Source of the DNA: an uncultured Acidimicrobiia bacterium
Lineage (GTDB): Bacteria > Acidobacteriota > Terriglobia > Versatilivoradales > Versatilivoraceae
Assembly: GCA_963786955.1 (NCBI GenBank)
Contig: CAWBAT010000006.1
Span: forward strand, 736,001 to 800,000
Reading direction: 5' to 3'
Length of the DNA stretch: 64,000 nucleotides
Part shown: piece by piece, positions 15,128 to 64,000 of the stretch
How positions within the stretch are numbered: the first letter of the stretch is position 1
Layout of the letters: every line of letters starts with the position of its first letter
Position numbers and translations under genes: made by a program
Notes under the pieces: model-generated
Database searches by the model: none
Seen by the model: only the letters and a program-made list of their open reading frames with translations
What the model was told of the DNA's origin: nothing

Positions 15128-16370
15128 ATGAATTTGAAACAAATCGTGGATCTGGAATCAAAAGTATTGCTGGCCAACTACAAGAAATATCCTCTCTTTG
15201 TGGACAAGGGACGGAAATGCATCGTTTATGATCATGCCGGCAAACGCTACGTCGATCTTTTAGCGGGCATCGCCGTGAATGCGCTGGGATATAACCATCC
15301 CCGAATCACCAATATTCTCCGCAAACAGATCAAGAAGAGCATTCACGTCAGCAATCTCTTTTATCATCCCTACCAAGCATTGCTGGCAAAAAAACTGGTC
15401 GAACTCAGCGGATTGCAAAAAGTCTTTTTCTGCAACAGCGGTACGGAAGCCGTTGAAGCGGCCTTCAAGCTTGCGCGTGGATACTCCTACAAGAACAGAC
15501 TGGGCGAAGGGAAGTTCGAAATCTTGACGATGGATAACGCCTTCCATGGCAGAACCTATGGGGCCTTATCTGCGACGGCATCCGACAAATACCGAAAGCC
15601 ATTTGAGCCCCTGGTCCCCGGATTCCATTTTGTCCGCTTTAACGATGTGGAGGATTTGAGAGCCAAGTTTAGTGAAAAAGTATGCGGCATTATCATCGAA
15701 CCACTCCAGGGCGAAGGGGGCATTCACGCCTGCAGTGAAGAATTCTTGAAGGCAGCCCGACAACTCTGCGACCACTACAAAGCCCTGTTGATTCTCGACG
15801 AGATTCAATGCGGGATCGGCCGAACCGGACGCTACTTTTATTACGAAAAATTCGGCCTGCTCCCGGATGTCCTGACATTAGCCAAGCCTCTCGGATTGGG
15901 ATTGCCACTTGGCGCGGTGGTGACGACGGATCGGATCGCACCCACTTTTGGTCCGGGCGATCATGGGACCACCTTTGGCGGAGGCCCTCTCTCCTGCCGG
16001 GTGGGGTTCGAGTTCCTCAAGGTCATGCAGGAAGAAGGGATGCTCGAGAAAATCCGTGAACTAGGGCGATTACTTTAAGAGTAAACTCCTCTCCCTGAAA
16101 GATAAATACCCCTTCGTCAAGGAAGTTCGGGGAGAGGGTTTGATTCTCGGGATGGAGTTGAGCTTCCCTTGCCGGGAGGTTGTGAATCGTTGCCTTGAAG
16201 CGGGTTACATTATCAATGTGACCAGCGACAACGTCCTCCGTTTTTTGCCTCCTTATGTCATCTCCAAGAAGGAAATCGCCAAGTTCATTCAAGCATTGGA
16301 TCGGATCTTTAAAGAGTTGGACCCGGCACAGTTCAGCCCGAACCATCCGAGTGCCGGAGGAGTCCATTGA
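15128..16370 (+). CDS. argD: Acetylornithine aminotransferase (frameshift near 16070)
   Basis: FCNSGTEAVEAA, EPLQGEGG, LILDEIQCGIGRTG, HGTTFGG; C-terminal VLRFLPP in ORF 16140-16370. Confidence 0.92.
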
Positions 16371-17339
16371 CGATGTCATCCCGCAAGCCGAATTCCTCGG
16401 CCAGACCCCAGAGTGGAAAGCTCTCCGTTCAGGACTTGCTTTCACTGGCCTTAATGACTTCCAAAGATATCGAATTGGTTTTCACAACTGCCCAATCGAT
16501 CAAGCAGTCTCCAAAGAATTACGCGCAAGCCTTGCAGTCAAAAACCTTGGCCCTGATATTTGAGAAGCCCTCCCTCCGCACCCGCGTGACGTTTGACGTC
16601 GGAATGACGAGCATGGGAGGTCATGCCGTATTTCTCGATCACTCCGACACAAAGTTGGGTGAGCGCGAGTCTATCAAAGACGTGGCAAAGAATTTGGAGC
16701 GCTGGGTGGATGGCATTGTTGCCCGAACGTACAAAAACAAATCGGTTTGGGAGTTGGCGGAACATGCTTCCATTCCCGTGATCAACGGGCTGACGGATCT
16801 GCTCCATCCGTGCCAGGCACTCAGCGACTATTTCACGGTTCTCGAAAAATTCGGGTCCCTGAAAGGGCTCAAGTTTGCCTATGTCGGAGATGGCAATAAT
16901 ACCTGCCACTCCTTAATCGATGGCGCCGCGAAGCTGGGAGTGGAACTCTGGATTGCAACGCCTGAAGGATTTGGAGCCCAACCCCCGCATCGTCAATGAG
17001 GCCGAAAAAGTGATCAAGAAGACCGGGGGAAAGCTTGAAATTCAATACAGCCCGGAAAAGGCCGTTCGAGGAGCGAGTGTCGTGTACACAGACGTCTGGG
17101 CCAGTATGGGACAGGAGGCAGAAACAGAAGATCGCGCAGCCATCTTTTCCGATTACCAAGTGAATCGCAAGTTGATGTCGTTTGCCGCGCGGAACGCGGT
17201 TTTCATGCACTGCCTGCCAGCCCATCGGGGTTACGAAGTAGCTCCGAATGTGATTGACTCCCCTCAGTCCATCGTCTATGACCAGGCTGAAAACCGGCTG
17301 CACGTGCAGAAAGCGATCCTCTATCTTCTGATCTCTTAG
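16367..17339 (+). CDS. argF: Ornithine carbamoyltransferase (frameshift near 16970)
   Basis: FEKPSLRTR, HPCQ, YTDVWASMGQE, FMHCLPAHRG, DQAENRLH. Confidence 0.93.
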
Positions 17340-25122: not shown

Positions 25123-25972
25123 TTAACCAGCCCAGTATTCGCCTTGACAGATTAGTCTGGCCGGCCCTTTGAGGTAAAGATGTTGGTCCTCACTCCATTG
25201 GATTTCAAGCATGCCACCCAACGTGCTTACGGAAACTTCACGTTCAGTCAATCCATTGAGGATGGAGGCGACGACGGCCGCACTGGCACCGGTCCCGGAA
25301 GATAACGTCTTGCCTACGCCCCTCTCCCAAAATCTCACCTCAATGTTCCTGCGGTCAATGACGCGTACAAATTCGACATTGGTTCGTCGTGGGAACAAAT
25401 CATGGGTTTCGAGGTGCTTACCCGTATCGTCCCAATCCGTCCGGCCAAAATCGTCCACAAATAGGGTGCAGTGTGGATTTCCCATGGAAGTCAGGGTAGC
25501 TTGCACCGTCCTGGTTCCCGAGAGAAATCGCGCGGCCAATGAGACTCTCGGAGCCCTCAGAGCCCTTGAAATCAAGGCGTGAAGGCTTCAAGATCGGCTG
25601 CCCCATGTCGACTAGAAACCAATAAATCGGATGAGACGTGGCAATCCGTTTCAAGAAATGTTCTCCGGAGACGGTGTCTATTGAGAGTTTGTCGGCTTTC
25701 AACTCTGGACCGGCACAAAGATGCGCGGCGAGGCAACGAAGCCCATTGCCTGAAACTTCGGCTTCGCTCCCGTCTGCATTGAATATTCTCATCTGGTAGG
25801 AACCCGGCGGACGATGCGGCAAAGCCTGATAAATCAGCAGGCCATCGGCGCCAATGCCAGTGTGCCGCTCGCAAATTGTGCAGGCTAGCGCGCTCCAATC
25901 AGAGGGCTCCAACGATCTCTGGTCAATAATGATAAAATCGTTTCCAAGCCCTTCGGCTTTCGAGAATTGCAT
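25123..25972 (-). CDS. dapF: Diaminopimelate epimerase (frameshift near 25510)
   Basis: GLGNDF, GIGADG, NADGSEAEVSGNGLRC, MGNPH, NVEF, WERGVG.T.SSGTGA. Confidence 0.92.
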
Positions 25973-26040: not shown

Positions 26041-26962
26041 TCAGGCAAAAGAATGATCGTTTTCAAAATGAGTCAATTCTTTGAACTGCCGATAGCGTTC
26101 CCGGATCTCTGACGGCCTTAGCTTCTTGAGCCGGTTCAGACTAAATTCCTCAACGTTAAAAGAGGCCATGACTGATCCATAGACTACCGCTCTACGTAAA
26201 CAGTCTTCATCGAGGCGGCCTACTTTGGCCAAATAGCCCACAAATCCCCCGGCGAAGGTATCTCCAGCACCCGTAGGATCGAACACCTCCTCTAGAGGAA
26301 AGGCCGGGGCTCCAAAGATAGACTCGTCCGTAAACATGGCAACCCCGTATTCGCCCTTTTTGACGACCACAATCTTCGGTCCCCAGGAAGAAATCAATCG
26401 AGCCGCTTTGGTCAGATTGGACTGGTCTGCGAGCATCCGGGCTTCGCCATCGTTAATGATTAAAATATCAACCAGGGCAAGTGTCTTTTTGAATTCATCC
26501 GGCTTTGAAGAGATCCAAAAATTCATCGTGTCGCAAGCCACAAATTTCGGTTTATTGACCTGCTCGAGGACTTTGCGTTGCAGGACTCGGATCAATGTTT
26601 CCGAGAAACACATAATTGCAATCTCGATACTCCTTTGGGATTTCCGGGCTAAAGGCTTCGAAGACGTTTAACTGTGTCTCCAGAGTTTTGGCTTCATTCA
26701 GAGCTAAACCATACTCTCCTCTCCAGCGGAAGGTCTTCCCCGAGGCCTTCTGCAGACCCTTTGTATCGACCGAAAAATCACGGAATAATTTCAGGTGTTG
26801 GGGCGGGAAGTCCTCTCCGACTACAGCCACCAGCTTCACGGGAGCAAAAAAGCTGGCTGCGATAGAGAAATAGGACGCCGACCCGCCCAGCACTTCATCC
26901 ACTTCTCCAAAGGGGGTTTTCACCGAATCAAAAGCCACTGAACCGACGACAAGGATCGACAT
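26041..26962 (-). CDS. PfkB family carbohydrate/nucleoside kinase (frameshift near 26585)
   Basis: VVGSVAFD..KTPFG, GGSA.Y, DPTGAGDTFAGG. Confidence 0.92.
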
Positions 26963-28512: not shown

Positions 28513-29448
28513 TCAAAGCCCTTCGACAATGTTATCGATGGCGGAATAAGGATCTATTTTCCGCTCGCTTACTGCCACCGAAGCGGCTTGGAGTTTATCC
28601 CAAACTGCATTTTTCTGAATAGCTTTTTCTAGCAGGCGTTCTTTGAGCAATTCACGAAGATTGTCTTCGACAATTTGCCTTCGCCGGGCACCCCAATCAG
28701 GAGAATCTCGACGAAATGATTGAAGAGATCGACTTGTTGAACCAAGATCGCGGACGCCTTGGCCTTCGTGTCGCAATCGTCCTCACAATGGCCGGGGTCC
28801 AGCCATCGCCGACGTGTCGCCAGGGAAAGAGCAGATTCCAATTCTCTTTGAACTTTCTCGACCAAAGGTTGATCGGATTTATTGATCACGAAAATATCGG
28901 CGATTTCCATGATGCCGGCTTTAAACGCTTGCAGGTCATCTCCCATCCCCGGGAACCAATACCACCAGGCAGACATCGGCGACTCGGACGATCTCGACTT
29001 CGTCCTGTCCAACGCCCACGGTTTCCACCAAAATCAAGTCAAAGCCGCTACTATCCAGGACGGTGATCATTTTTTCTGTGGTTCGGGCTAATCCACCGAG
29101 ATGCCCACGGGTGGCCATAGATCGGATAAAAACTCCTTCGTCGGCGTAGTGACGGCTCATTCGAACCCGATCCGCCATGATGGCCCCCCCACTGAATGGG
29201 CTGGTCGGGTCGACGGCAACAATGCCTACTTTTTTCCCTTGAGACCGATATTCCTGGATCATGACATCGACCAAGGTACTCTTTCCACTTCCAGGAGCTC
29301 CCGTGATCCCAACCACAAGCGCGTTTCCGGTTTTGTGAAATAAGGATTTCAGGAGCTCTCGCGCGGAAATGGATTCATTCTCAATGAGAGTCATGGCTCG
29401 GGCAATAGCTCGCGAATTCCCACTCAGGATTTCTTCAGTTAAAGACAT
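28513..29448 (-). CDS. meaB: Methylmalonyl-CoA mutase-associated GTPase (several frameshifts)
   Basis: GITGAPGSGKST, AVDPTSPFSGGA, RSMATRG.LGG, ETVGVGQDE, KAGIMEIAD..VINKSD, DPYSA. Confidence 0.9.
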
Positions 29449-55398: not shown

Positions 55399-56994
55399 AT
55401 GTTAAATAGATTTTCACTGCCAGCAAAAGTTACTTTGCTTCTTTCATTGGTCGTGTTTGGTGTCGTAATCGCCCTAACCTACTTCATGGCTCAGAGCGCC
55501 AAAAGCGTTATCGAAAGTGATTATCGGAAACGTTCGAATTCAGTGGCAGACCTGCTCGCCGATAAGCTGGATGATCATCCACAACTTCCTCCCAAAGAAG
55601 ATCTCGAAGACCTTGTTTTCGGAGCCAGTGAGAAAAACCTCAGCATTTCAGAGATATCGATATTCATGCATGACGGGAAGAATATTGTCCTGGCAGCAAC
55701 CTCGATCAATGAGGAAAATTCTCCCGTTCCTAATGAAGCCAGTGAAGTGATCCTTGGGGAAAAGAGGATCGACCGGGTGGCCTTTGACGGCAAGGAGAGA
55801 TTCTGCCAGATTGGGGTTCCGATTGTTTACCATAGCCCAAAGGGAAAGCTCGCCCAACGTAGAGTCCTCGGGTGTATTATTGTTTATACCTCGCTGGAAC
55901 AGGCTGACCAGATTATCGCCAAGAACTTCAAAGTGGCTTTTCTGTTCGCTCCCCCTGCTATCCTTATCCTCATTCTGCTGCTTAATGTCCTCTTCCGGTT
56001 CATCATTCATAAGCCTGTCAAAACCATTCAGGAAGCGATGGCCAAAGCAGAAGCTGGCGACTTGATGGCTGATGTGAATCTGAATTCCTCCGACGAACTG
56101 GGGAGGATTGCCGCAAGTTACAACCGGATGCTGCACCAGATTCGCGAAGTCACGACAGAACGAATAAAGCTCATTGAGAAGGTCGGCAATTTCAATATTG
56201 AACTCAAGTCGGAAGTAGCCAGCGCCACGGCTGAATTGAAGAGACGTAACCAGGAACTCCGTGACCTCAATACCCGACTTCTGAAAATGCAGTTGGAATT
56301 GGTCCAACTGGAGCGGCTGGCCGTGGCAGGGCAACTGACAGCAACTTTTGCACATGAAGTCGGAACTCCATTGAACCTGATTTCCGGTCATGTCCAATTG
56401 CTGATCGAATCTTTCAGTGACAATGAATTGATTCGTAGAAAACTATCCTTGGTTCAATCCCAAATCCGACGCCTCAGCGAAATTGTCAGACGCCTGTTAG
56501 ATGCGACCCGGAGGCCCAAACTTGAATTGGCGCCGGTCAACTTAAACGAACTCATCCAAACTGTCGGCGCTTTAATTAGACCGACTCTACAAACGCACAA
56601 TATCCAATACGTGGAAGTCCTGCAGTCGGAATTGCCCTTGATTCAAGCAGACCAAAAGCAATTGGAACAAGTTCTTTTGAACTTCATCAATAACAGTCTC
56701 GACGCCATGCCCAATGGGGGGGAACTGAAGATTGAAACACAGTCGGGACTTGAAAATAAAGTTTATGTCCGGGTAACCGACACCGGAACTGGGATCCTGC
56801 CTGAACACCTTGAAAAACTATTCGAGCCCATGTTTACGACCAAAGAGATCGGGCAAGGGACTGGCCTTGGGTTGAGCATTTCCCGGGATATCATTAAAGA
56901 ACATGGTGGAGAGATTGAAGTTAAAACGGTTTCGGGCGAAGGAGCTACCTTCACCATTCTCTTGTCGGCCGAGGTCCCTGTGTTACAGAGTTAA
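55399..56994 (+). CDS. Sensor histidine kinase (2 TM, HAMP, HisKA, HATPase)
   Basis: DELG.IA.SYN.M, FAHEVGTPL, QVLLN...NSLDAM, DTGTGI, FTTK..GQGTGLGL. Confidence 0.95.
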   Translation: MLNRFSLPAKVTLLLSLVVFGVVIALTYFMAQSAKSVIESDYRKRSNSVADLLADKLDDHPQLPPKEDLEDLVFGASEKNLSISEISIFMHDGKNIVLAATSINEENSPVPNEASEVILGEKRIDRVAFDGKERFCQIGVPIVYHSPKGKLAQRRVLGCIIVYTSLEQADQIIAKNFKVAFLFAPPAILILILLLNVLFRFIIHKPVKTIQEAMAKAEAGDLMADVNLNSSDELGRIAASYNRMLHQIREVTTERIKLIEKVGNFNIELKSEVASATAELKRRNQELRDLNTRLLKMQLELVQLERLAVAGQLTATFAHEVGTPLNLISGHVQLLIESFSDNELIRRKLSLVQSQIRRLSEIVRRLLDATRRPKLELAPVNLNELIQTVGALIRPTLQTHNIQYVEVLQSELPLIQADQKQLEQVLLNFINNSLDAMPNGGELKIETQSGLENKVYVRVTDTGTGILPEHLEKLFEPMFTTKEIGQGTGLGLSISRDIIKEHGGEIEVKTVSGEGATFTILLSAEVPVLQS

Positions 56995-57162
56995 GACCGA
57001 GACATTTCTCTAACTAAGACACATGGGTCGGAACAAGCTGCGGTCTTCAGGGGACCATAAAGATAGCCCGGGGGCTCCGCCAACCTGGACGACTAAACCG
57101 TCTGGCCAATTTACCGCTATGAAAACAGGTCCATACTCCATACGGGATAGACACCTCACCTC

Positions 57163-58521
57163 ATGCAAAAAGTCTTAATCGTTGATGACGACAAACTCAC
57201 TTGCGACTTCATTGCGGAGTTGCTGGACGATTTCAAAGTGGACATATCATCGACGCAAAACCCTGCTGAGGCCATTGAGCTCGGCCAGAAGTCAAAGTTT
57301 GATCTAATCATCAGCGACATCAATCTGCAAAATCGTTTGACAGGACTCGATGTCCTCAAGAGCTTTAGAAAATATCTGCCCGAGTCTGAGGTGATTCTAA
57401 TCAGCGGGTTTGGCACACTGGAAACTGCTATTGAAGCGGTTCGTGAGGGCGCCTTCGACTATATCAGCAAACCTTTTAACATTAACGAAGTCAAAGCCGT
57501 CGTCAAGCGTGCCCTCGAAAAGAAACAGCTGATTAAGGAGAATGAGCAGCTCCGGACCCAGCTCGACAATTTACCACCCTCTGCGACTCTGATTGGCAGT
57601 AGCCCCAAAATGTTAGCCGTCTATAAATCGATCGCCAGCGTCGCGCAGTCAAAGTCGACGGTACTGATTTATGGAGAAAGCGGGACGGGGAAAGAGCTGG
57701 TAGCCCGGCAGGTCCATAATAACAGTTCAAGGAAACAAAGAGGGTTCTTGGCTATCAATTGTGGTGCCCTTTCAGAATCGCTGTTGGAAAGCGAACTTTT
57801 TGGTTACCAGAAAGGAGCATTCACAGGAGCCAATACTGACCGAATTGGCTTATTTGAGGAAGCCGATGGCGGAACACTCTTCCTGGATGAAGTCGGCGAT
57901 ACCACCCCAGCCATGCAAGTAAAATTGTTACGGGCACTCCAGGAACAGGAAATTAAGCGAGTCGGTGGCGTCAAGACGATTAAGGTGGATGTTCGACTCA
58001 TTGCCGCTACTAATCAGAATCTGGAGGACCTTGTCAAGGAAGGTAAATTCCGAGAAGACTTGCTCTATCGGTTGAGCGTGATCACAATCACTGTCCCCCC
58101 TCTGAGAGAGCGCCGAGATGATGTTCCAACTCTCATTTCCCATTTTCTGAGAAAACACAGCCTGGACAAAAGGGCCCAGCCCAGTATCTCGCAGGAAGCC
58201 ATGAATGCATTATCTAGTTACTCGTGGCCAGGAAACGTGCGGGAGCTTGAAAACACGATCGAACGGGTCTGCCAGTTTTCAAAAGGAGGAATCATCACAC
58301 TGGATGACCTCCCGGCAAAGATGAATACCCAGGTTAAATTTCACCAAAGTCATCTTTATGATAACTTGCCCAGCTTGGATGAACTGGAAAAACGCTACCT
58401 GCTCCATATCTTGGAACATACTAAACATAACAAAAGCCATGCTGCTGAAATCCTTGGAATCAACCGAAGGACGCTTTATCGGATGGCCGAACGCTTTGGG
58501 ATTGATTTAAAAGAAGATTGA
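57163..58521 (+). CDS. Sigma-54-dependent NtrC-family response regulator
   Basis: REC, GESGTGKE, ESELFG..KGAFTGA, LFLDE, FREDLLYRL, WPGNVREL, Fis-type HTH. Confidence 0.96.
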   Translation: MQKVLIVDDDKLTCDFIAELLDDFKVDISSTQNPAEAIELGQKSKFDLIISDINLQNRLTGLDVLKSFRKYLPESEVILISGFGTLETAIEAVREGAFDYISKPFNINEVKAVVKRALEKKQLIKENEQLRTQLDNLPPSATLIGSSPKMLAVYKSIASVAQSKSTVLIYGESGTGKELVARQVHNNSSRKQRGFLAINCGALSESLLESELFGYQKGAFTGANTDRIGLFEEADGGTLFLDEVGDTTPAMQVKLLRALQEQEIKRVGGVKTIKVDVRLIAATNQNLEDLVKEGKFREDLLYRLSVITITVPPLRERRDDVPTLISHFLRKHSLDKRAQPSISQEAMNALSSYSWPGNVRELENTIERVCQFSKGGIITLDDLPAKMNTQVKFHQSHLYDNLPSLDELEKRYLLHILEHTKHNKSHAAEILGINRRTLYRMAERFGIDLKED

Positions 58522-58823: not shown

Positions 58824-59009
58824 ATGAAGAAATTACTATCCTTAATCATCGTTGCCATGATTGCTCTTACCATGAGCTTTGGCACATTCGCATCGGAAGA
58901 GAAGTCCACCGATAAGTCAACAGCCAGCACCAAGAAGTCCAAGAAAGCAAAGAAAACTTCCACAAAGTCGACCGCCGAAAAAGCTCCCGCAGCGGCTCCC
59001 TCCAAGTAA
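58824..59009 (+). CDS. Small secreted Lys/Ser/Thr/Ala-rich protein (Asr-like composition)
   Basis: AAGGAG RBS; Sec signal peptide MKKLLSLIIVAMIALTMSFGTFA; basic low-complexity mature part. Confidence 0.82.
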   Translation: MKKLLSLIIVAMIALTMSFGTFASEEKSTDKSTASTKKSKKAKKTSTKSTAEKAPAAAPSK

Positions 59010-59032: not shown

Positions 59033-59080
59033 GAAAAGCCAGCCTTCCATTTCATCAATGGGAGGCTGGCTTTCTTATTT
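59033..59080. terminator. Intrinsic terminator hairpin
   Basis: AAAGCCAGCCTTCCATT-TCATC-AATGGGAGGCTGGCTTT followed by CTTATTT. Confidence 0.8.
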
Positions 59081-59240: not shown

Positions 59241-60116
59241 CTAATTTTGCTTCGTAATTCCGCATAACCAATCCAGCGCCTCATACAATTTGGCACGAAA
59301 CTCATTGCGCCCGCCGCTGAAGCGATGATTCCGCGCCGAGACAGAATAAAACTTCTTAAATGTTGTGTCTGCCCCGAACAAAGCATGGGCTTTTTCCGCA
59401 GGTAAGTATTCGTCATGGCTTGACTGGATCAAGGCCGTCGGAAGTAAAGCCATCGAAGAAAACAGATCGTAGGTGTCAAAAATGATGTACTGGTGCTTCG
59501 AGGAGCGCTCCAAGATAACAATCTCCCTGTCATGGCGGCGAATGTCCAACTCTTCTTTGTGAGGCAGGCCGATGGCAAGAACCCCAAGCAGCCCTTGCTC
59601 CGAAGACTTATCTGCCCCCACCAAGACACCAAAGGCCGCCCCGCGTGACCAGCCCGAAAGTACTGTCTTTGTGTCTCTCGCTAGATTGAGGTTTTTCTTG
59701 GCCTCTTCGATAATCAGTTGATAATCTTTGATGAGTTCTTCCAAAGTGACCGGCTCCTGGCTGCGGTTTAGAATCTTCATATAGGAGCGAGAGCTAAAAC
59801 CAACTGTCGGATACCCGAACGCTGAAATTTCCTCGAACATCCCGACAGCCTCTCCATACCATCCTCCGTCCCCACTTGCGTACAAAACGAGAACGGGAGG
59901 CACGGCGTGTGTCCCTAAATCGCTCAAATAAAGCTCCAGCGGTTGCCCATGGAGAACGACCTTGCTCACGAAGGGTTTTATCTCTCGTTCATAAGCATTT
60001 ACTTCCATTCGCAGCCAGAAAATAACTGCGAGGTTCAGACAGATGGTCAGCAGCGTCTTCCGAATGATGACTCGAACTAAAACATATGGCATCAATTCAT
60101 CTTCTCTAAAGGCCAA
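59241..60116 (-). CDS. AcvB/VirJ-like alpha/beta hydrolase
   Basis: YASGDGGW, VGFSSRSY, LSGWSRGA (GxSxG), C-terminal NHRFSG. Confidence 0.8.
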   Translation of the reverse strand: MAFREDELMPYVLVRVIIRKTLLTICLNLAVIFWLRMEVNAYEREIKPFVSKVVLHGQPLELYLSDLGTHAVPPVLVLYASGDGGWYGEAVGMFEEISAFGYPTVGFSSRSYMKILNRSQEPVTLEELIKDYQLIIEEAKKNLNLARDTKTVLSGWSRGAAFGVLVGADKSSEQGLLGVLAIGLPHKEELDIRRHDREIVILERSSKHQYIIFDTYDLFSSMALLPTALIQSSHDEYLPAEKAHALFGADTTFKKFYSVSARNHRFSGGRNEFRAKLYEALDWLCGITKQN

Positions 60117-60196: not shown

Positions 60197-61093
60197 TCAT
60201 CGTTTCACGCTTTTGATCCATGACAATGCTTCCAAAATGGAATTATTCAGCCCCACATGATTGTCACTGAAGCGGTGATTGGCAGCCTCGACAACCCACA
60301 TTCTTTTGGGCTCTTTGGCCAGGGCAAACAGCACCTTTGCCTTTTCCAAGGATAGGAATTCATCATGAGTGGAATGGATCTCGGCTAAAGGGACAGGGCT
60401 AATCTGCTGGATGATATCTTCAACCATAAAGCTGGGTTCATCAGGAGTCTTCTTGGTGATCCAGATTGTAAAGTCCTGCCATTTCCATCCCAGCTCATTC
60501 TGATCAGGCAAACCCAAGCCAAGGATTCCCGCAATGCCATCCCTGACCAAAGAGTCTGTAGCCGCTAGAACAGAGAGTCCTGCCCCCTCGGAAACTCCGC
60601 TCAAAATGGGTTTCACGGGGGAGAAGCGTTTCGCATAGTGGATCAGCTCTACATAATCCCTCGGCACGTCCTGAGGCGTCAAAGTACCAGTTCTCGTAGT
60701 AAAACTACTCAGGTAGGCCCGGCTATTGAACCCGATCACTTGATATCCGTTCCTCGAATAAAATTCGGCGACATGGGTCACGAGACCTGCCCAGCCAAGA
60801 TCTCCACTGGAAAGAATGATGGCCGGGTTTCCTTGCTTCCCGTATATAGAGAGTTCCTGGGCTTTTCCTCGAAGCATAATATTGACTAGTGATTGCCCTT
60901 GAAGCGGTTCCGCTAATAAGATCAAGAAAAGCACTATGGGACTGAGCCCGATCAATCGGGATTTTCTGGGCCCACCGGAACGGAACCGGCATGGAAGTTG
61001 CATCTGTCTTCCTGGAATAACAATTCCTCGCCGGATAAATGACCCAAAGCTCTCCTCATTGGCGAGAGTCACTTGTATTGAGGATATGGTCAA
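60197..61093 (-). CDS. AcvB/VirJ-like alpha/beta hydrolase
   Basis: LSSGDLGW, IGFNSRAY, LSGVSEGA, C-terminal NHRFSD; AGGAGAGG RBS before TTG. Confidence 0.8.
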   Translation of the reverse strand: MTISSIQVTLANEESFGSFIRRGIVIPGRQMQLPCRFRSGGPRKSRLIGLSPIVLFLILLAEPLQGQSLVNIMLRGKAQELSIYGKQGNPAIILSSGDLGWAGLVTHVAEFYSRNGYQVIGFNSRAYLSSFTTRTGTLTPQDVPRDYVELIHYAKRFSPVKPILSGVSEGAGLSVLAATDSLVRDGIAGILGLGLPDQNELGWKWQDFTIWITKKTPDEPSFMVEDIIQQISPVPLAEIHSTHDEFLSLEKAKVLFALAKEPKRMWVVEAANHRFSDNHVGLNNSILEALSWIKSVKR

Positions 61094-61109: not shown

Positions 61110-63309
61110 TCACTTCATTAACAGTTTTAACAATCCGCCGGAAACATGAATCGCCGTCATGGCGTATGCGACTCGAGGCAAGTCTGCTCCTTTAGGATAA
61201 ACCAGATAGCGGCCTTCCCAACGAGGAGCGAATTTTTTCTTGAATTGGAAGAGGTTCTTATACCCGTAGAATGCATTCAAGTTTTCAAAAAGAAGCTCAA
61301 CACCACGCTCCAAGGTATCTGTAGGCCCTATCACATTGGCAAGAGGGGCATTGGCTAAGCTTGCCTCCGTACGACCCGAAGCCTTGAGCAGGAGCAGCGA
61401 ATGGGCCAGGAGAAAATCCATCGTCCCCGCAGCTGCGGTCTTACGCTTCCTCATAATATCCAATACTACCGCCTCTCCTCGACGGTAGGGCAACCAGGTA
61501 CAGAAGGCATCAATTTTCTCATTTTGCCCACAGATAAAGACCTGAAGCTCATTCAGCGCCTCGAGCGAGAAGCGCCCCAAGGTGAAACTCATTTCACCCA
61601 ATTTTTTTTCTCTCAGCCATTCCTGAGAAATATCTTCCAGCTGTTCGTCGAGCACAGCATCCGCATGGCACTTCCGCTCATACAGTCGAACCTCTGCTCC
61701 GGTTTTCGCTACTTTATTGACATGGGCTCGCAAATTTGCCCGCGCCCCGCCAGCCAAGCTAAATCCAGGAAGATCAATTAATGCCTCTTCGGCAATTTTC
61801 AATGATCGAAGTCCCACAGAATGATAGGCGGCGAGTCTGGATTCTGCAGCCTCATAAATGCAGGGGGTCCAGCCGTTCTTCCGGCAATATGTGAGAAATT
61901 CTTCAACGGCGCGGACAAATTCAACTTGCGGAGCCATTGGATCTCCACAAGCGATTGCAACTCCTTTTTGAGTCGCGTATGCCACCATCGCACTTCCACC
62001 GGCAATCAAAAGATGATTCTTGTCTGTCTGAATGGCAAAGGCAGAAAGAGATTGAACACCGTTCTGATCGAATATCTGTCGAATCTTATCCGGGGGGGCT
62101 TCCTGCCGATTACGCAGGATCACTGGCCGGAGCAGCATCACCAACAAATAAAAACGCGCAATCCAACCAGTGATTTCGAGAGAATTAAGGAATAGCAAGG
62201 CATGGGGAGTCTTGGGTATGAGCTTAAGTCCAGCGATGAGGATGCCGGCATCGAATGCTTGGTTCAGGGGGGTGGCGCCAGGAAGCCATTCAAACTTTTG
62301 ATAAAGATGCTGCAATCCTATGAACCCATACAAAAGCACAACCAGAGTCAGTAGGGGAAGCAGCAGCAGTGCTCTTCTCGCTGACACGGGGTCACTTCGT
62401 GCATAGAAGCGCCGTCTAAAATAAATCAAATAGCTTAACAACAAACCTGCGACGAGGGAATTGTGCAGATTCAATCCGCGGGTAATATGGAGCAAAAAGG
62501 ACACCGAAAGAGAGATGGTCGCCACATACCAGGCCAGCTCTTTCTCCTGGCCAGATTCCGTGTCACCTGCAGAAGAGCGACCCCTGCGAAAAGCATGAGC
62601 GGTCGGCTGTGCTGAGTGACTTCCAGGGGAAGCCAGCTCTCGACTGCTGCCATAGAATGCTGAGAGCGAGGCCAGATGGCTGAGACCAGATTGAGAAGTC
62701 CCATCACCCCCATTGCAAAAGGAGCCAGCAAGTGCAGATCGGCAGCTCGAAGATCCTCAACCCACTCCGCTCGCTTCAAGTGACGAATGAGCAGAACCGA
62801 TAGGGCTCCGATCAGGAACGTGAAAACGATCCAGAGCTCGTAGCGGTATGCCTCTGCAAGCAAGAGCTCTGCAGCGTGTCCGAAATAGAAGCCCAAGAGG
62901 GCTGTGGGGACTGCCCAGATTATGCTGGCGAGCAAGTTAATCAGGCAGAACTGAACTGGCGCCATGCCCAAGGCGCCGCAAGCGGCAGGAATGATGATCC
63001 TGAACCCAAAGGCGAAACGACTGGCCAGGAGGAGCCAATACGCATACCGCGACATCAGGCTCAGACAACGGTGATAGTGCGGGTTCTGCTGGAAGCGACG
63101 ATCCAGCCACTTTCGACCGCGAACTCGAGCAATCGCAAAATAAATCTGGTCCGCCGCGGAGTTGGAGAGGACTGCTGTCAGAATGACCAGCCCGAGGCGG
63201 AATACCCCCGATGCGCCAAGTAGGAACCGGCAAGCAGAAAGGCTTCTCCCTCGATGGCAACGCCGAAGAAGAGAATCAGGTAACCATACTTTAACAGGAG
63301 AAATTCCAT
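61110..63309 (-). CDS. DedA/VTT - aminoacyl-phosphatidylglycerol synthase (MprF C-terminal/DUF2156) fusion; frameshifts near 63200 and 62540
   Basis: N-term YGYLILFFGVAIEGE..LLAG.YLAHRG, DQIYF, SRFAFGFR...P.ACG (DedA); then TM block and AIACGDP, KIAEEA.IDL.GFSL.G, EMSFTLG, LDIMRK, GTMDFL, SLANAP, FYGYKNLFQFKKKFAPRWE.RYL. Confidence 0.85.
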
Positions 63310-63355: not shown

Positions 63356-64000
63356 CTAATCAACCAAGAACGCTAGCACCGTTTGATCGTCCCTCCAATC
63401 ATTCACGCCAATGGGTCCAACCCCTATTCACCAATTTTAATATGATTCACAAATCCCCTGTGGATTTTGATCCTGAGACTTTCTTAGGATTGCTCCTCGC
63501 AGGAATTCTGGCAAGGAATCGGCTTCTATCGGGAGAACTTCACCGATCCCGTCGGTAAAGAGGACACCCAGAGCCCCGCCTTCGAAAGACAATGTGCATT
63601 TTTGATAATCGCTGTTTGGGAACATACCGGGCAGGGGTGCCGCCGCGATCGAGAAGATGATCGCCGTCGTGGCTAAAGACAATTCCAGGGGGGTGACCGG
63701 CATTGACATAGGTCAATGATTTTTCTCGAGAATTAATGACCCCTAGGGTACAAGTCAGATAAACAACCCCCTGATGTTCGGCATAGAAGGCTGAGGAGAT
63801 CTTGCCTAATAGATCTGAAGGATCGTGGGTCTCTCTCGAAACATTCGGAAAAGGGTTCGTATCGAAGTCAGCGTTAACGCTGCCGGTATGCCTTTGCCTG
63901 AGATGTCTGCGTCAGCACGAGATAGGTGTTCGGATCGAGCGATATGAAGTCATAGAAATCTCCCCCAATCTTTCCGGCGGGTTTGAGGACTGCTCCCCAG
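63356..64000 (-). CDS. PP2C/SpoIIE (RsbU-like) phosphatase, 3' part, frameshifted
   Basis: Hand-read GGDFYDF, ADISGKGIPAAL, YVNAGHPP, FTDGI.E, DDQTVL. Confidence 0.85.

What the first reader, a model, noticed from the sequence alone, without database searches (positions are those of the whole stretch)
61110..63309. DedA flippase-like domain fused to an aminoacyl-PG synthase: a non-canonical MprF
Seen: restoring two single-base deletions gives one ~733-aa protein: DedA/VTT domain, TM block, DUF2156 synthase. The DedA-to-TM junction lies within one unbroken ORF (62471-63055), so the fusion does not depend on the corrections. The usual N-terminal MprF flippase domain is absent. Known: MprF couples tRNA-dependent lipid aminoacylation to flipping; several DedA proteins are lipid flippases or scramblases. 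Inference: DedA has replaced the MprF flippase, and with two AcvB-like hydrolases forms a synthesise-flip-remove system for membrane charge control. Best candidate for an undescribed system in this window.
Basis: partly seen in the sequence, partly recalled or inferred. Interest (0 to 1): 0.82.

Follow-up and report, generated by a model that had tools for sequence, protein, structure and literature searches.

The report
DedA-fused aminoacyl-lipid synthase, frame-broken in assembly
This is a membrane-lipid-modifying enzyme in which a DedA lipid-transporter domain takes the place of the usual MprF flippase part; the design is real and conserved but was already noted in print in 2023, and the two breaks in this copy look like sequencing errors.

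Summary
On the minus strand, 61110-63309 reads as one ~733-aa gene in three frames: a DedA/VTT domain, six MprF-type membrane helices, and an LPG_synthase_C (DUF2156) domain. One unbroken frame crosses the DedA-to-MprF junction. Of the 120 best database homologs, 110 carry both Pfam domains, most at 733-735 aa.

The two breaks are one-base shortfalls in short homopolymers. The same window has housekeeping genes split the same way. A same-genus relative carries a different private indel in this gene. dN/dS is 0.11-0.15 in all three frames. Assembly error is therefore much likelier than a pseudogene.

The fusion keeps MprF Subdomain 2 and the synthase and swaps only Subdomain 1 for DedA. A VirJ-family serine hydrolase gene follows it in every relative where the flank is readable; the second one occurs only in this genus.

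Roney and Rudner (PNAS 2023, Discussion and Fig. 5 legend) reported DedA-MprF fusions and drew the same conclusion, and a 2025 MprF paper repeats it. I found no experimental test. Verdict: a new member of a known but uncharacterised architecture; moderate interest.

The parts
63203..63309 (-). Fusion gene, frame A: ATG start at 63307-63309 and the first ~36 residues of the DedA/VTT domain
   Evidence: ORF and sequence. Matches P0002 residues 1-40 at 85% identity. dN/dS 0.11 against the same-genus relative.
63201..63202 (-). Break 1: TT here where the relative has TTT, one base short; shifts frame A to frame B
   Evidence: DNA alignment to L005/L048. A contig of run X1, a ~90%-identical relative, also has one extra base behind 63199.
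62544..63200 (-). Fusion gene, frame B: rest of the DedA/VTT domain, linker, and the first two MprF-type helices (TM9-10 equivalents); contains the DedA-to-MprF junction
   Evidence: PF09335 at E 1.5e-14. Single open frame matching P0002 residues 30-258. P0002 residue 193 onward aligns to RtMprF residue 346 onward. dN/dS 0.12.
62541..62543 (-). Break 2: AAA here where the relative has AAAA, one base short; shifts frame B to frame C
   Evidence: DNA alignment to L005/L048. No laid contig bridges this place.
61110..62540 (-). Fusion gene, frame C: remaining MprF Subdomain-2 helices (TM11-14 equivalents) and the cytoplasmic LPG_synthase_C tandem-GNAT domain, with the stop codon
   Evidence: PF09924 at E 7.8e-70, full model length. 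It is the only PF09924 match in the genome. The synthase part of the homolog's model matches 4v36, 4v34 and 5vrv at target-normalised TM-score 0.80-0.82. dN/dS 0.15.
60197..61093 (-). VirJ-family alpha/beta serine hydrolase A, candidate exported aminoacyl-PG hydrolase; starts within about 20-110 nt of the fusion's stop, depending on the start codon chosen
   Evidence: PF06057 at E 7.6e-8, 32.9 bits against a cut-off of 22. A profile of the seven homologs hits AcvB 9xhm at E 1.6e-11. SGDxGW, GxSxG Ser168, Asp244 and His273 are invariant. An ortholog sits directly downstream of the fusion in 5 of 5 readable relatives. The model is an alpha/beta-hydrolase fold.
59241..60116 (-). VirJ-like hydrolase B, a paralog of A at 29% identity; found only in this genus
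   Evidence: PF06057 at E 3.5e-4, 21.0 bits, just under the 22-bit cut-off. Shares all invariant motif residues with A. An ortholog at 82% identity is present only in L048.
59035..59073 (.). 17-bp-stem hairpin between the convergent small + strand ORF and hydrolase B; a likely terminator closing the operon
   Evidence: Terminator-like site. Consensus scan only: 6 such sites found in the region against 6.2 expected.
55399..58521 (+). HAMP-HisKA-HATPase histidine kinase (55399-56994) and NtrC-type sigma-54 response regulator (57163-58521), convergent with the operon; possible regulators
   Evidence: Pfam. Homologs of both lie within a few kb of the fusion in 3 of 6 relatives' loci (L045, L047, L049). 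No sigma-54 promoter was found upstream of the fusion.

Best explanation
The locus encodes one ~733-aa inner-membrane protein, a DedA-MprF fusion. Its C-terminal tandem-GNAT domain uses an aminoacyl-tRNA to esterify phosphatidylglycerol on the cytoplasmic face. Which amino acid it transfers is unknown. Six membrane helices homologous to MprF Subdomain 2 hold that domain at the membrane. [quoted passage not shown] One or two exported VirJ-family serine esterases encoded just downstream then remove the amino acid again, so surface charge is set by synthesis against hydrolysis, as in lpiA-acvB. The two frame breaks in this copy are most likely homopolymer deletion errors of the assembly, so the gene is probably intact in the organism. 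Shown here: the domain order, the junction in one frame, conservation of the fusion, the linkage to the hydrolase gene, and purifying selection. Inferred: enzymatic activity, the amino acid used, flipping by DedA, and export and substrate of the hydrolases.
For: Architecture: PF09335 plus PF09924 in the window's frames and in P0002. P0002 residues 193-732 align to RtMprF 346-868, which is Subdomain 2 (Ser334-Arg530) plus the synthase (Pro539-Gly860) as that paper defines them. P0002 Arg305, conserved in at least 90% of 39 aligned fusions, aligns to RtMprF Arg456, the conserved residue that bridges to the synthase domain.

Conservation: 110 of the 120 listed homologs have both domains. In the 40 relatives searched, the fusion is in one open frame in 4 genomes, is split over two contig ends in 1, and carries frame breaks in 2. 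Of 10 long 50%-identity representatives tested, 8 carry both domains. Charged DedA residues E20, R98 and R104 are invariant and D54 is at least 90% conserved.

Modularity: in other genomes of the same class and phylum, the Subdomain-2-plus-synthase gene is followed by a separate PF03706 gene. L007 has synthase, VirJ-like hydrolase, then PF03706. L008 has synthase, then PF03706. The slot DedA fills is thus filled elsewhere by the known flippase module, in cis or in trans.

Hydrolases.

Errors rather than decay: both breaks lie in homopolymers. OTCase, MeaB, PfkB and DapF in the same window are split across overlapping frames. There are 15 single-base indels against the relative in 5 kb of mostly coding DNA, and the window is the shorter sequence in 11 of them. 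The relative has its own private break in this gene. dN/dS is 0.11, 0.12 and 0.15 in the three frames, against 1.3-1.4 for wrong-frame controls.

Print: the same inference is drawn in PMC10193950 and PMC11980842.
Against: No reads of this strain were available. The best run held only 0.25 of the sampled words, and no contig bridged break 2, so a real, recent pseudogene is not excluded. Low dN/dS cannot exclude very recent inactivation.

Flipping by the DedA domain rests on position and analogy only. The genome also has two stand-alone PF03706 genes that could act in trans.

The AlphaFold model of the homolog has pTM 0.48, with pLDDT 37-60 across residues 181-310. It therefore says nothing reliable about how DedA packs against the MprF helices.

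The hydrolases are remote from AcvB. Sequence matches stop shortly after the nucleophile. AcvB's Asp340 position is Gly in hydrolase A and Ala in hydrolase B. AcvB did not appear among the listed ranks 1-50 of the Foldseek hits; its entry may postdate that library's 8 April 2026 cut-off.
Confidence: 0.62

Rival explanations
1. The gene is a true pseudogene in this organism. The two one-base deletions are real mutations, and the cell makes only fragments, for example the 471-aa C-terminal ORF.
For: There are two breaks in 2.2 kb. No read or contig from the strain itself contradicts them. The fusion is patchy in the family: it was not found in 8 of 8 genomes of genus g189 with this query, so loss does occur.
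Against: Both breaks are homopolymer length changes. Housekeeping genes in the same window are broken the same way. The window is one base short at 11 of 15 single-base differences from the relative, and run X1 agrees with the relative at 63418 and 63443. The relative has a different private break in the same gene. There are no in-frame stops, and dN/dS is 0.11-0.15 in each frame.
Confidence: 0.13
2. The fusion is a working aminoacyl-PG synthase, but the DedA domain does not translocate the product. It might supply or scramble bulk PG, anchor or regulate the synthase, or carry another lipid such as a polyprenyl phosphate. In that case aminoacyl-PG would cross the membrane through a stand-alone PF03706 protein or unaided.
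For: Two stand-alone PF03706 genes exist in the genome. Passages of PMC8131360 report that S. aureus Subdomain 1 works in trans when co-expressed. The DedA part's only NCBIfam hits are weak matches to UptA undecaprenyl-phosphate transporters, E 2.5e-4 and 7.5e-4, far below cut-off. PaMprF is reported as a promiscuous scramblase, so specificity of the transport module may not matter.
Against: Neither stand-alone PF03706 gene lies near an aminoacyl-lipid gene. One sits between a sugar kinase and a carboxypeptidase; the other sits beside a GT2 glycosyltransferase. Where relatives use PF03706 in trans, it lies in the same operon as the synthase. In this family DedA occupies that slot, and its charged intramembrane residues are invariant.
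Confidence: 0.22
3. The frame changes are programmed: ribosomal frameshifting or transcriptional slippage at the two homopolymers gives regulated full-length protein.
For: Both shifts are in the same direction and lie at short homopolymers.
Against: Homologs are encoded in a single frame at these places: 110 of the 120 listed, and 4 relatives' genomes in one open frame. The runs are only 2 and 3 bases long. The same kind of break hits unrelated housekeeping genes.
Confidence: 0.01

Closest known systems
DedA-MprF (DedA-LPG synthase) gene fusions noted by Roney and Rudner, PNAS 2023 (PMC10193950, Discussion, Fig. 5 legend, Methods; passages read, figure and supplements not seen)
   Same: The same Pfam architecture, PF09335 N-terminal to the lysyl-PG synthase domain, and the same inference that DedA replaces the MprF flippase domain.
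   Different: That report is a domain-architecture note from InterPro with no experiment. It does not state, in the passages I read, which MprF helices are kept, the linked VirJ-like hydrolase, or the split-operon relatives. The window's copy is frame-broken in the assembly.
Canonical MprF/LpiA (R. tropici 6lvf/7duw; P. aeruginosa 9goe, 9j8q; NCBIfam NF033480)
   Same: Subdomain 2 (TM9-14 equivalents) and the tandem-GNAT synthase domain are homologous: E 2.2e-42 to 6lvf over P0002 residues 193-732. The conserved Arg456 equivalent is kept. The operon includes a periplasmic hydrolase.
   Different: Subdomain 1 (TM1-8, PF03706), which holds the lysyl-PG cavity C, is absent and a DedA/VTT domain takes its place. 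NF033480 matches only model positions 287-838 and scores 356.7 bits against a cut-off of 600.
Split MprF operons in the same class and phylum (L007, L008)
   Same: The same Subdomain-2-plus-synthase core, at 31-32% identity to P0002 residues ~193-721. L007 also has a VirJ-like hydrolase next to it.
   Different: The translocation module is a separate PF03706 gene downstream rather than an N-terminal DedA domain.
AcvB / VirJ lysyl-PG hydrolases of Agrobacterium (9xhm; PMC13197417 passages; PMC13135905 listing only), and PA0919 of P. aeruginosa (recalled, no call)
   Same: The SGDxGW motif and the GxSxG nucleophile align with AcvB's C-terminal catalytic domain. The gene lies directly downstream of the synthase gene. 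There is an N-terminal hydrophobic segment consistent with export (read by eye).
   Different: These are single-domain proteins of roughly 250-300 aa, not AcvB's two domains. AcvB Asp340, needed for Lys-PG hydrolysis, is Gly or Ala here. The residue after the nucleophile is Glu in hydrolase A and Arg in hydrolase B. Sequence similarity covers only the first half of the domain.
DedA-family lipid transporters (PetA, UptA, TMEM41B/VMP1), as described in PMC10193950 passages
   Same: A VTT domain scoring above the Pfam cut-off, with invariant intramembrane Glu and Arg residues.
   Different: Those are stand-alone proteins. Here the domain is covalently joined to a lipid-modifying enzyme. The substrate is not known.

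Membership tests
Aminoacyl-PG synthase domain (Pfam PF09924 LPG_synthase_C / DUF2156) | Full-length match to the tandem-GNAT synthase domain above the curated cut-off | tested here: met
   Window frame C: E 7.8e-70, 235.7 bits against a cut-off of 27.5, model positions 2-298 of 298. The homolog's model matches 4v36, 4v34 and 5vrv at target-normalised TM-score 0.80-0.82.
Aminoacyl-PG synthase domain (Pfam PF09924 LPG_synthase_C / DUF2156) | tRNA-dependent aminoacylation of PG, and which amino acid is transferred | not testable with these tools
   Needs lipid analysis of an expressed intact homolog.
Bifunctional MprF (NCBIfam NF033480 equivalog) | Subdomain 2 membrane helices (TM9-14) preceding the synthase | tested here: met
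   P0002 residues 193 to ~400 align to RtMprF 346 to ~530 (boundaries from PMC8131360). There is also a weak PF16995 match at E 1.4e-5, below cut-off.
Bifunctional MprF (NCBIfam NF033480 equivalog) | N-terminal Subdomain 1 / PF03706 flippase region (TM1-8) | tested here: not met
   No PF03706 match in any frame or in P0002. NF033480 matches only model positions 287-838 and scores 356.7 bits against a cut-off of 600.
DedA / VTT domain (Pfam PF09335) | Match above the gathering score | tested here: met
   55 bits against 33.9 in window frame B. 52.6 bits in P0002, residues 21-140.
DedA / VTT domain (Pfam PF09335) | Conserved membrane-embedded acidic and basic residues (the E, D, R, R set described for E. 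coli YqjA; that description is recalled, not from a call) | tested here: inconclusive
   E20, R98 and R104 are invariant and D54 is at least 90% conserved in 39 fusions. I did not align them to YqjA, so equivalence is inferred from motif context only.
DedA-MprF fusion class (Roney and Rudner 2023) | DedA domain and LPG synthase domain in one polypeptide, with DedA in place of the flippase domain | tested here: met
   The junction lies in one open frame in the window. 110 of the 120 listed homologs have both domains. 4 relatives' genomes have it in one open frame. In the window itself the full-length reading needs two one-base corrections.
VirJ / AcvB aminoacyl-PG hydrolases (Pfam PF06057) | Pfam VirJ match above the cut-off | tested here: inconclusive
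   Hydrolase A meets it: 32.9 bits against 22. Hydrolase B scores 21.0 bits, just below. The seven-sequence profile hits AcvB 9xhm at E 1.6e-11.
VirJ / AcvB aminoacyl-PG hydrolases (Pfam PF06057) | Catalytic Ser and His (AcvB Ser336 and His433) and acidic head-group residues Asp271, Asp340 and Asp370 (PMC13197417 passages) | tested here: inconclusive
   The GxSxG Ser168 and the Asp of SGDxGW align with AcvB's GYSFG serine and SGDGGW aspartate. That these are Ser336 and Asp271 is inferred from the paper's Ser336-Phe337-...-Asp340 spacing, because chain numbering is offset from the paper's numbering. The Asp340 position is Gly in A and Ala in B. An invariant His273 exists but lies beyond the aligned stretch. 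Asp370 could not be placed.
VirJ / AcvB aminoacyl-PG hydrolases (Pfam PF06057) | Two-domain architecture of AcvB (N-terminal plus C-terminal alpha/beta domains) | tested here: not met
   ORFs of 298 and 291 aa. The model of hydrolase A shows one alpha/beta-hydrolase domain. The profile matches each AcvB domain with the same single stretch.

The most novel reading that the evidence does not exclude
This lineage offers a natural three-way series around one conserved synthase core: PF03706 in cis, PF03706 as a separate operon gene, and DedA in cis. In it, DedA would be a true functional substitute for MprF Subdomain 1. In addition, the genus-specific second VirJ paralog, with Arg rather than Glu next to the nucleophile, would act on a different aminoacyl head group. 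The locus would then make and trim more than one aminoacyl-lipid, possibly under the adjacent sigma-54 two-component system.
Probability: 0.12. Interest if true: 0.6.

Novelty: new member of a known kind. Interest (0 to 1): 0.35.

Why it matters
DedA proteins are near-universal, and their lipid-transport role is still being worked out. A protein in which a DedA domain sits exactly where a structurally defined flippase module sits in MprF is a clean natural test of whether the two are interchangeable. That value has already been recognised in print. What this locus adds is context. It defines exactly which part of MprF is kept. It shows a conserved downstream single-domain VirJ-type hydrolase. 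It identifies relatives in which the same slot is filled by a separate PF03706 gene. It also provides intact close homologs suitable for expression. The window's own copy should not be used as it stands, because it carries probable assembly errors.

Tried and rejected
Reads. No public run holds the strain; the best share of sampled words was 0.25. Contigs laid from four runs covered parts of the stretch only. None bridged break 2: 99%-alike contigs of run X1 end at 62536 and restart at 62541 and 62544. This says nothing either way about break 2.

ORF-junction heuristic. A count of overlapping same-strand frames gave 2.66 per 10 kb in the window against 0.5-2.5 in four 20-kb control stretches from complete relatives. 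It also missed known breaks, so I dropped it as uninformative.

Sigma-54 promoter. No GG-N10-GC site scoring well against the consensus lies in the 400 nt upstream of the fusion in the window or in five relatives. The window holds 4 near-consensus sites against 3.83 expected by chance, none upstream of the gene. The link to the neighbouring two-component system therefore rests on adjacency alone.

Structure. The AlphaFold2 model of P0002 with 39 aligned sequences has mean pLDDT 70.6 and pTM 0.48. The MprF helices are poorly modelled, so I drew no conclusion on DedA-to-Subdomain-2 packing. The Foldseek search with the hydrolase A model returned generic esterases and dienelactone hydrolases, with no AcvB entry among the listed ranks 1-50. 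That library stops at 8 April 2026 and may not hold 9xhm.

Distribution. With P0002 as query, none of the other 300 sampled genomes of the phylum matched from the DedA part through the synthase in one place. These are samples searched with one query, so this is not proof of absence.

Taxonomy. One homolog is named by its source as from an Acidobacteriota MAG. The record title of L005 names a different group. I did not resolve this.

Complex prediction was not used: neighbourhood alone did not justify it.

Literature. Searches found 12 papers holding both 'DedA' and 'MprF'. I read passages of 4 of them (PMC10193950, PMC11980842, PMC13703766, PMC11698083). Only the first two mention the fusion, and neither tests it. 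The other 8 I saw as listings only. Supplements are closed, so Roney and Rudner's SI, which may list the fusions and their taxa, was not seen. The counts printed in their Fig. 5 were also not visible.
Full report
WHAT IS THERE

On the minus strand between 63309 and 61110 there are three overlapping open frames. The first starts with ATG at 63309, reads MEFLLLKYGYLILFFGVAIEGEAFLL..., and stops at 63178. The second is open from 63355 to 62471. The third is open from 62756 to 61110.

Pfam places a VTT/DedA domain (PF09335, E 1.5e-14, 55 bits against a cut-off of 33.9) in the second frame. It places a full-length LPG_synthase_C domain (PF09924, E 7.8e-70, model positions 2-298 of 298) in the third. 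No frame matches PF03706, the MprF flippase region.

An intact 734-aa database protein, P0002, matches the three frames in order in the window's own genome. Residues 1-40, 30-258 and 254-733 match at 85-89% identity, with no stop inside any piece.

The key point also holds. The middle frame alone spans P0002 residues 30-258. P0002 residues 193-732 align to Rhizobium tropici MprF residues 346-868. The DedA-to-MprF junction is therefore encoded in one unbroken frame.

THE TWO BREAKS

A DNA alignment to a same-genus relative (L005/L048, 86.6-88.5% nucleotide identity) pins each break to a one-base shortfall in a homopolymer. The window has TT where the relative has TTT at 63201-63202, and AAA where the relative has AAAA at 62541-62543 (coding-strand letters).

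Several lines point to assembly error.

- Housekeeping genes in the same window are split across overlapping frames. The OTCace domain is cut into model positions 1-41 and 36-157. MeaB is cut into 1-159 and 155-205. A PfkB kinase has only its C-terminal part in one ORF. The two DapF domains lie in overlapping frames.
- Over the 5 kb that align with the relative there are 15 single-base indels in mostly coding DNA, and the window is the shorter sequence in 11 of them.
- At 63199, 63418 and 63443, a contig of an unrelated public run agrees with the relative against the window.
- The relative has its own private one-base difference in this gene, near P0002 residues 662-675, where the window is intact.
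- dN/dS between the window and the relative is 0.11, 0.12 and 0.15 in the three frames. The same stretches read one base off give 1.3-1.4.

No run holds the strain itself: the best share of sampled words was 0.25. Nothing bridged break 2. A very recent real pseudogene therefore cannot be excluded. I put it at about 13%.

IS THE FUSION REAL AND CONSERVED?

Yes. Of the 120 best homologs listed, out of 463 with E at or below 0.001, 110 carry both PF09335 and PF09924, most of them at 733-735 aa. The other 10 are the window's own 471-aa ORF plus nine shorter proteins of 462-649 aa, all on contigs of 1.5-5.4 kb.

Among the 40 relatives searched, the fusion is in one open frame in four genomes: G317, G306 and G303 at 60-62% identity, and G326 of another family at 49%. 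It is split over two contig ends in one genome (G311) and frame-broken in two (G302, G304). It was not found in 8 of 8 genomes of genus g189.

In a sample of 300 other genomes of the phylum, no place matched from the DedA part through the synthase.

I also searched 1.84 billion 50%-identity representatives with the junction-bearing frame. This found 17 proteins at E at or below 1e-30. Eight proteins of 412-799 aa matched across the whole junction. Of 10 long representatives checked with Pfam, 8 carry both domains, including more distant forms of 770 and 827 aa.

The family is thus narrow in sequence space but common in environmental data.

WHAT EXACTLY WAS REPLACED

Passages of Song et al. 2021 (PMC8131360) define three parts of RtMprF. 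Subdomain 1 runs from Leu24 to Arg325 (TM1-8, with the two inverted half-helix motifs and most of lysyl-PG cavity C). Subdomain 2 runs from Ser334 to Arg530 (TM9-14). The synthase runs from Pro539 to Gly860.

The same passages recall that an S. aureus MprF lacking most of Subdomain 1 still makes Lys-PG but translocates it poorly, and that Subdomain 1 can work in trans.

The fusion keeps Subdomain 2 and the synthase and replaces only Subdomain 1. P0002 Arg305 is conserved in at least 90% of 39 aligned fusions. It aligns with Arg456, the conserved residue that bridges to the synthase domain.

NCBIfam's MprF equivalog model matches only its positions 287-838 and scores 356.7 bits against a cut-off of 600. 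The protein works like an MprF in its C-terminal two thirds, but it is not an MprF by that definition.

In the DedA part, E20, R98 and R104 are invariant and D54 nearly so. That these correspond to the essential charged residues of E. coli YqjA is my recollection plus motif context; I did not align them.

SURROUNDINGS

Two VirJ-like genes follow on the same strand, at 60197-61093 and 59241-60116. A 17-bp hairpin comes after them.

Hydrolase A passes Pfam's VirJ cut-off. Hydrolase B falls just short, at 21.0 against 22 bits. A profile of seven homologs hits the AcvB structure 9xhm at E 1.6e-11, but only up to just past the nucleophile. SGDxGW, GxSxG (Ser168), Asp244 and His273 are invariant in both paralogs. 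The model of A is a single alpha/beta-hydrolase domain.

Passages of the 2026 AcvB paper (PMC13197417) name Ser336 and His433 as the catalytic pair, and Asp271, Asp340 and Asp370 as needed for Lys-PG. Here the Asp340 position is Gly in A and Ala in B. The residue after the nucleophile is Glu in A and Arg in B.

An ortholog of A lies directly downstream of the fusion in 5 of 5 relatives whose flank is readable (L044, L045, L046, L048, L049). The sixth locus, L047, ends at a contig end. B occurs only in the same-genus relative.

A histidine kinase and an NtrC-type regulator lie beside the operon in the window. Homologs of both lie near the fusion in 3 of 6 relatives' loci. I found no sigma-54 promoter upstream of the fusion.

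The genome has only one PF09924 match, this gene. It has two stand-alone PF03706 genes elsewhere. One lies beside a GT2 glycosyltransferase. The other sits between unrelated genes.

A USEFUL COMPARISON

In the same class and phylum, some genomes have a synthase gene with Subdomain 2 but no N-terminal module. A separate PF03706 gene follows it. L007 has synthase, VirJ-like hydrolase, then PF03706. L008 has synthase, then PF03706.

The slot that DedA fills in this family is therefore filled elsewhere by the known flippase module, either fused or as an operon partner. This is the best indirect support I found for the idea that DedA does the same job. It remains an inference.

COMPARISON WITH WHAT IS KNOWN

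The architecture is in print. [quoted passage not shown] Their Fig. [quoted passage not shown] I read passages only; the figure and supplements were not visible.

The 2025 paper on P. aeruginosa MprF as a scramblase cites this as a sign that DedA and MprF transport domains are interchangeable (PMC11980842).

Among the 12 papers in the searchable library that hold both 'DedA' and 'MprF', I read passages of four. I saw no experimental test of such a fusion; the other eight I saw as listings only.

The synthase-plus-hydrolase operon is the known lpiA-acvB arrangement.

VERDICT

This is a new member, frame-broken in the assembly, of a noted but uncharacterised DedA-MprF class, with an ordinary MprF-type hydrolase partner.

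My confidence in each part is as follows:

| Claim | Confidence |
|---|---|
| Identity and anatomy of the gene | about 0.9 |
| The breaks are assembly artefacts | about 0.85 |
| The DedA domain translocates the aminoacyl-lipid | about 0.5-0.6 |

Noticed in passing
window 16367-17339 (+), 25123-25972 (-), 26041-26962 (-), 28629-29448 (-): Housekeeping genes (ornithine/aspartate carbamoyltransferase, DapF, a PfkB kinase, MeaB GTPase) are each split over overlapping frames, so the assembly carries frequent one-base indel errors.
   Followed up: partly
window 63437-64000 (-): A SpoIIE/PP2C-type phosphatase gene upstream of the fusion is in several frame pieces. Six single-base indels against the relative fall within it.
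   Followed up: partly
window 58824-59009 (+): A 61-aa ORF with a signal-like N-terminus and a Lys/Ser/Thr/Ala-rich tail lies just after the NtrC-type regulator gene and before a 17-bp hairpin. It has a weak, sub-threshold NCBIfam hit to the acid-shock basic protein Asr (E 0.0024).
   Followed up: no
L007 1-3207 (-); L008 442-3144 (-): Relatives have split MprF operons: a Subdomain-2-plus-synthase gene followed by a separate PF03706 gene. L007 has a VirJ-like hydrolase gene between the two.
   Followed up: partly
window 55399-58521 (+); L045, L047, L049: A HAMP histidine kinase and an NtrC-type sigma-54 regulator recur within a few kb of the fusion in 3 of 6 relatives' loci, in different orientations. 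No sigma-54 promoter was found upstream of the fusion.
   Followed up: partly
P0149 (519 aa): In this representative, VTT_dom (residues 25-140) is followed by LPG_synthase_C from residue 192, apparently without the Subdomain 2 helices. It could be a real short form or a broken gene model.
   Followed up: no
G000 C3 38349-39110 (L051 1306-3302): A stand-alone PF03706 (PplT/YbhN-like) gene overlaps the start of a GT2 glycosyltransferase gene. This pairing fits what the PplT preprint reports for Acidobacteria.
   Followed up: no
L005 and P0057: Source labels disagree at a high taxonomic level. One homolog is named as from an Acidobacteriota MAG, while the record title of the closest relative's contig names a different group. 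The window's NtrC-type sigma-54 regulators fit the former better (my own knowledge).
   Followed up: no
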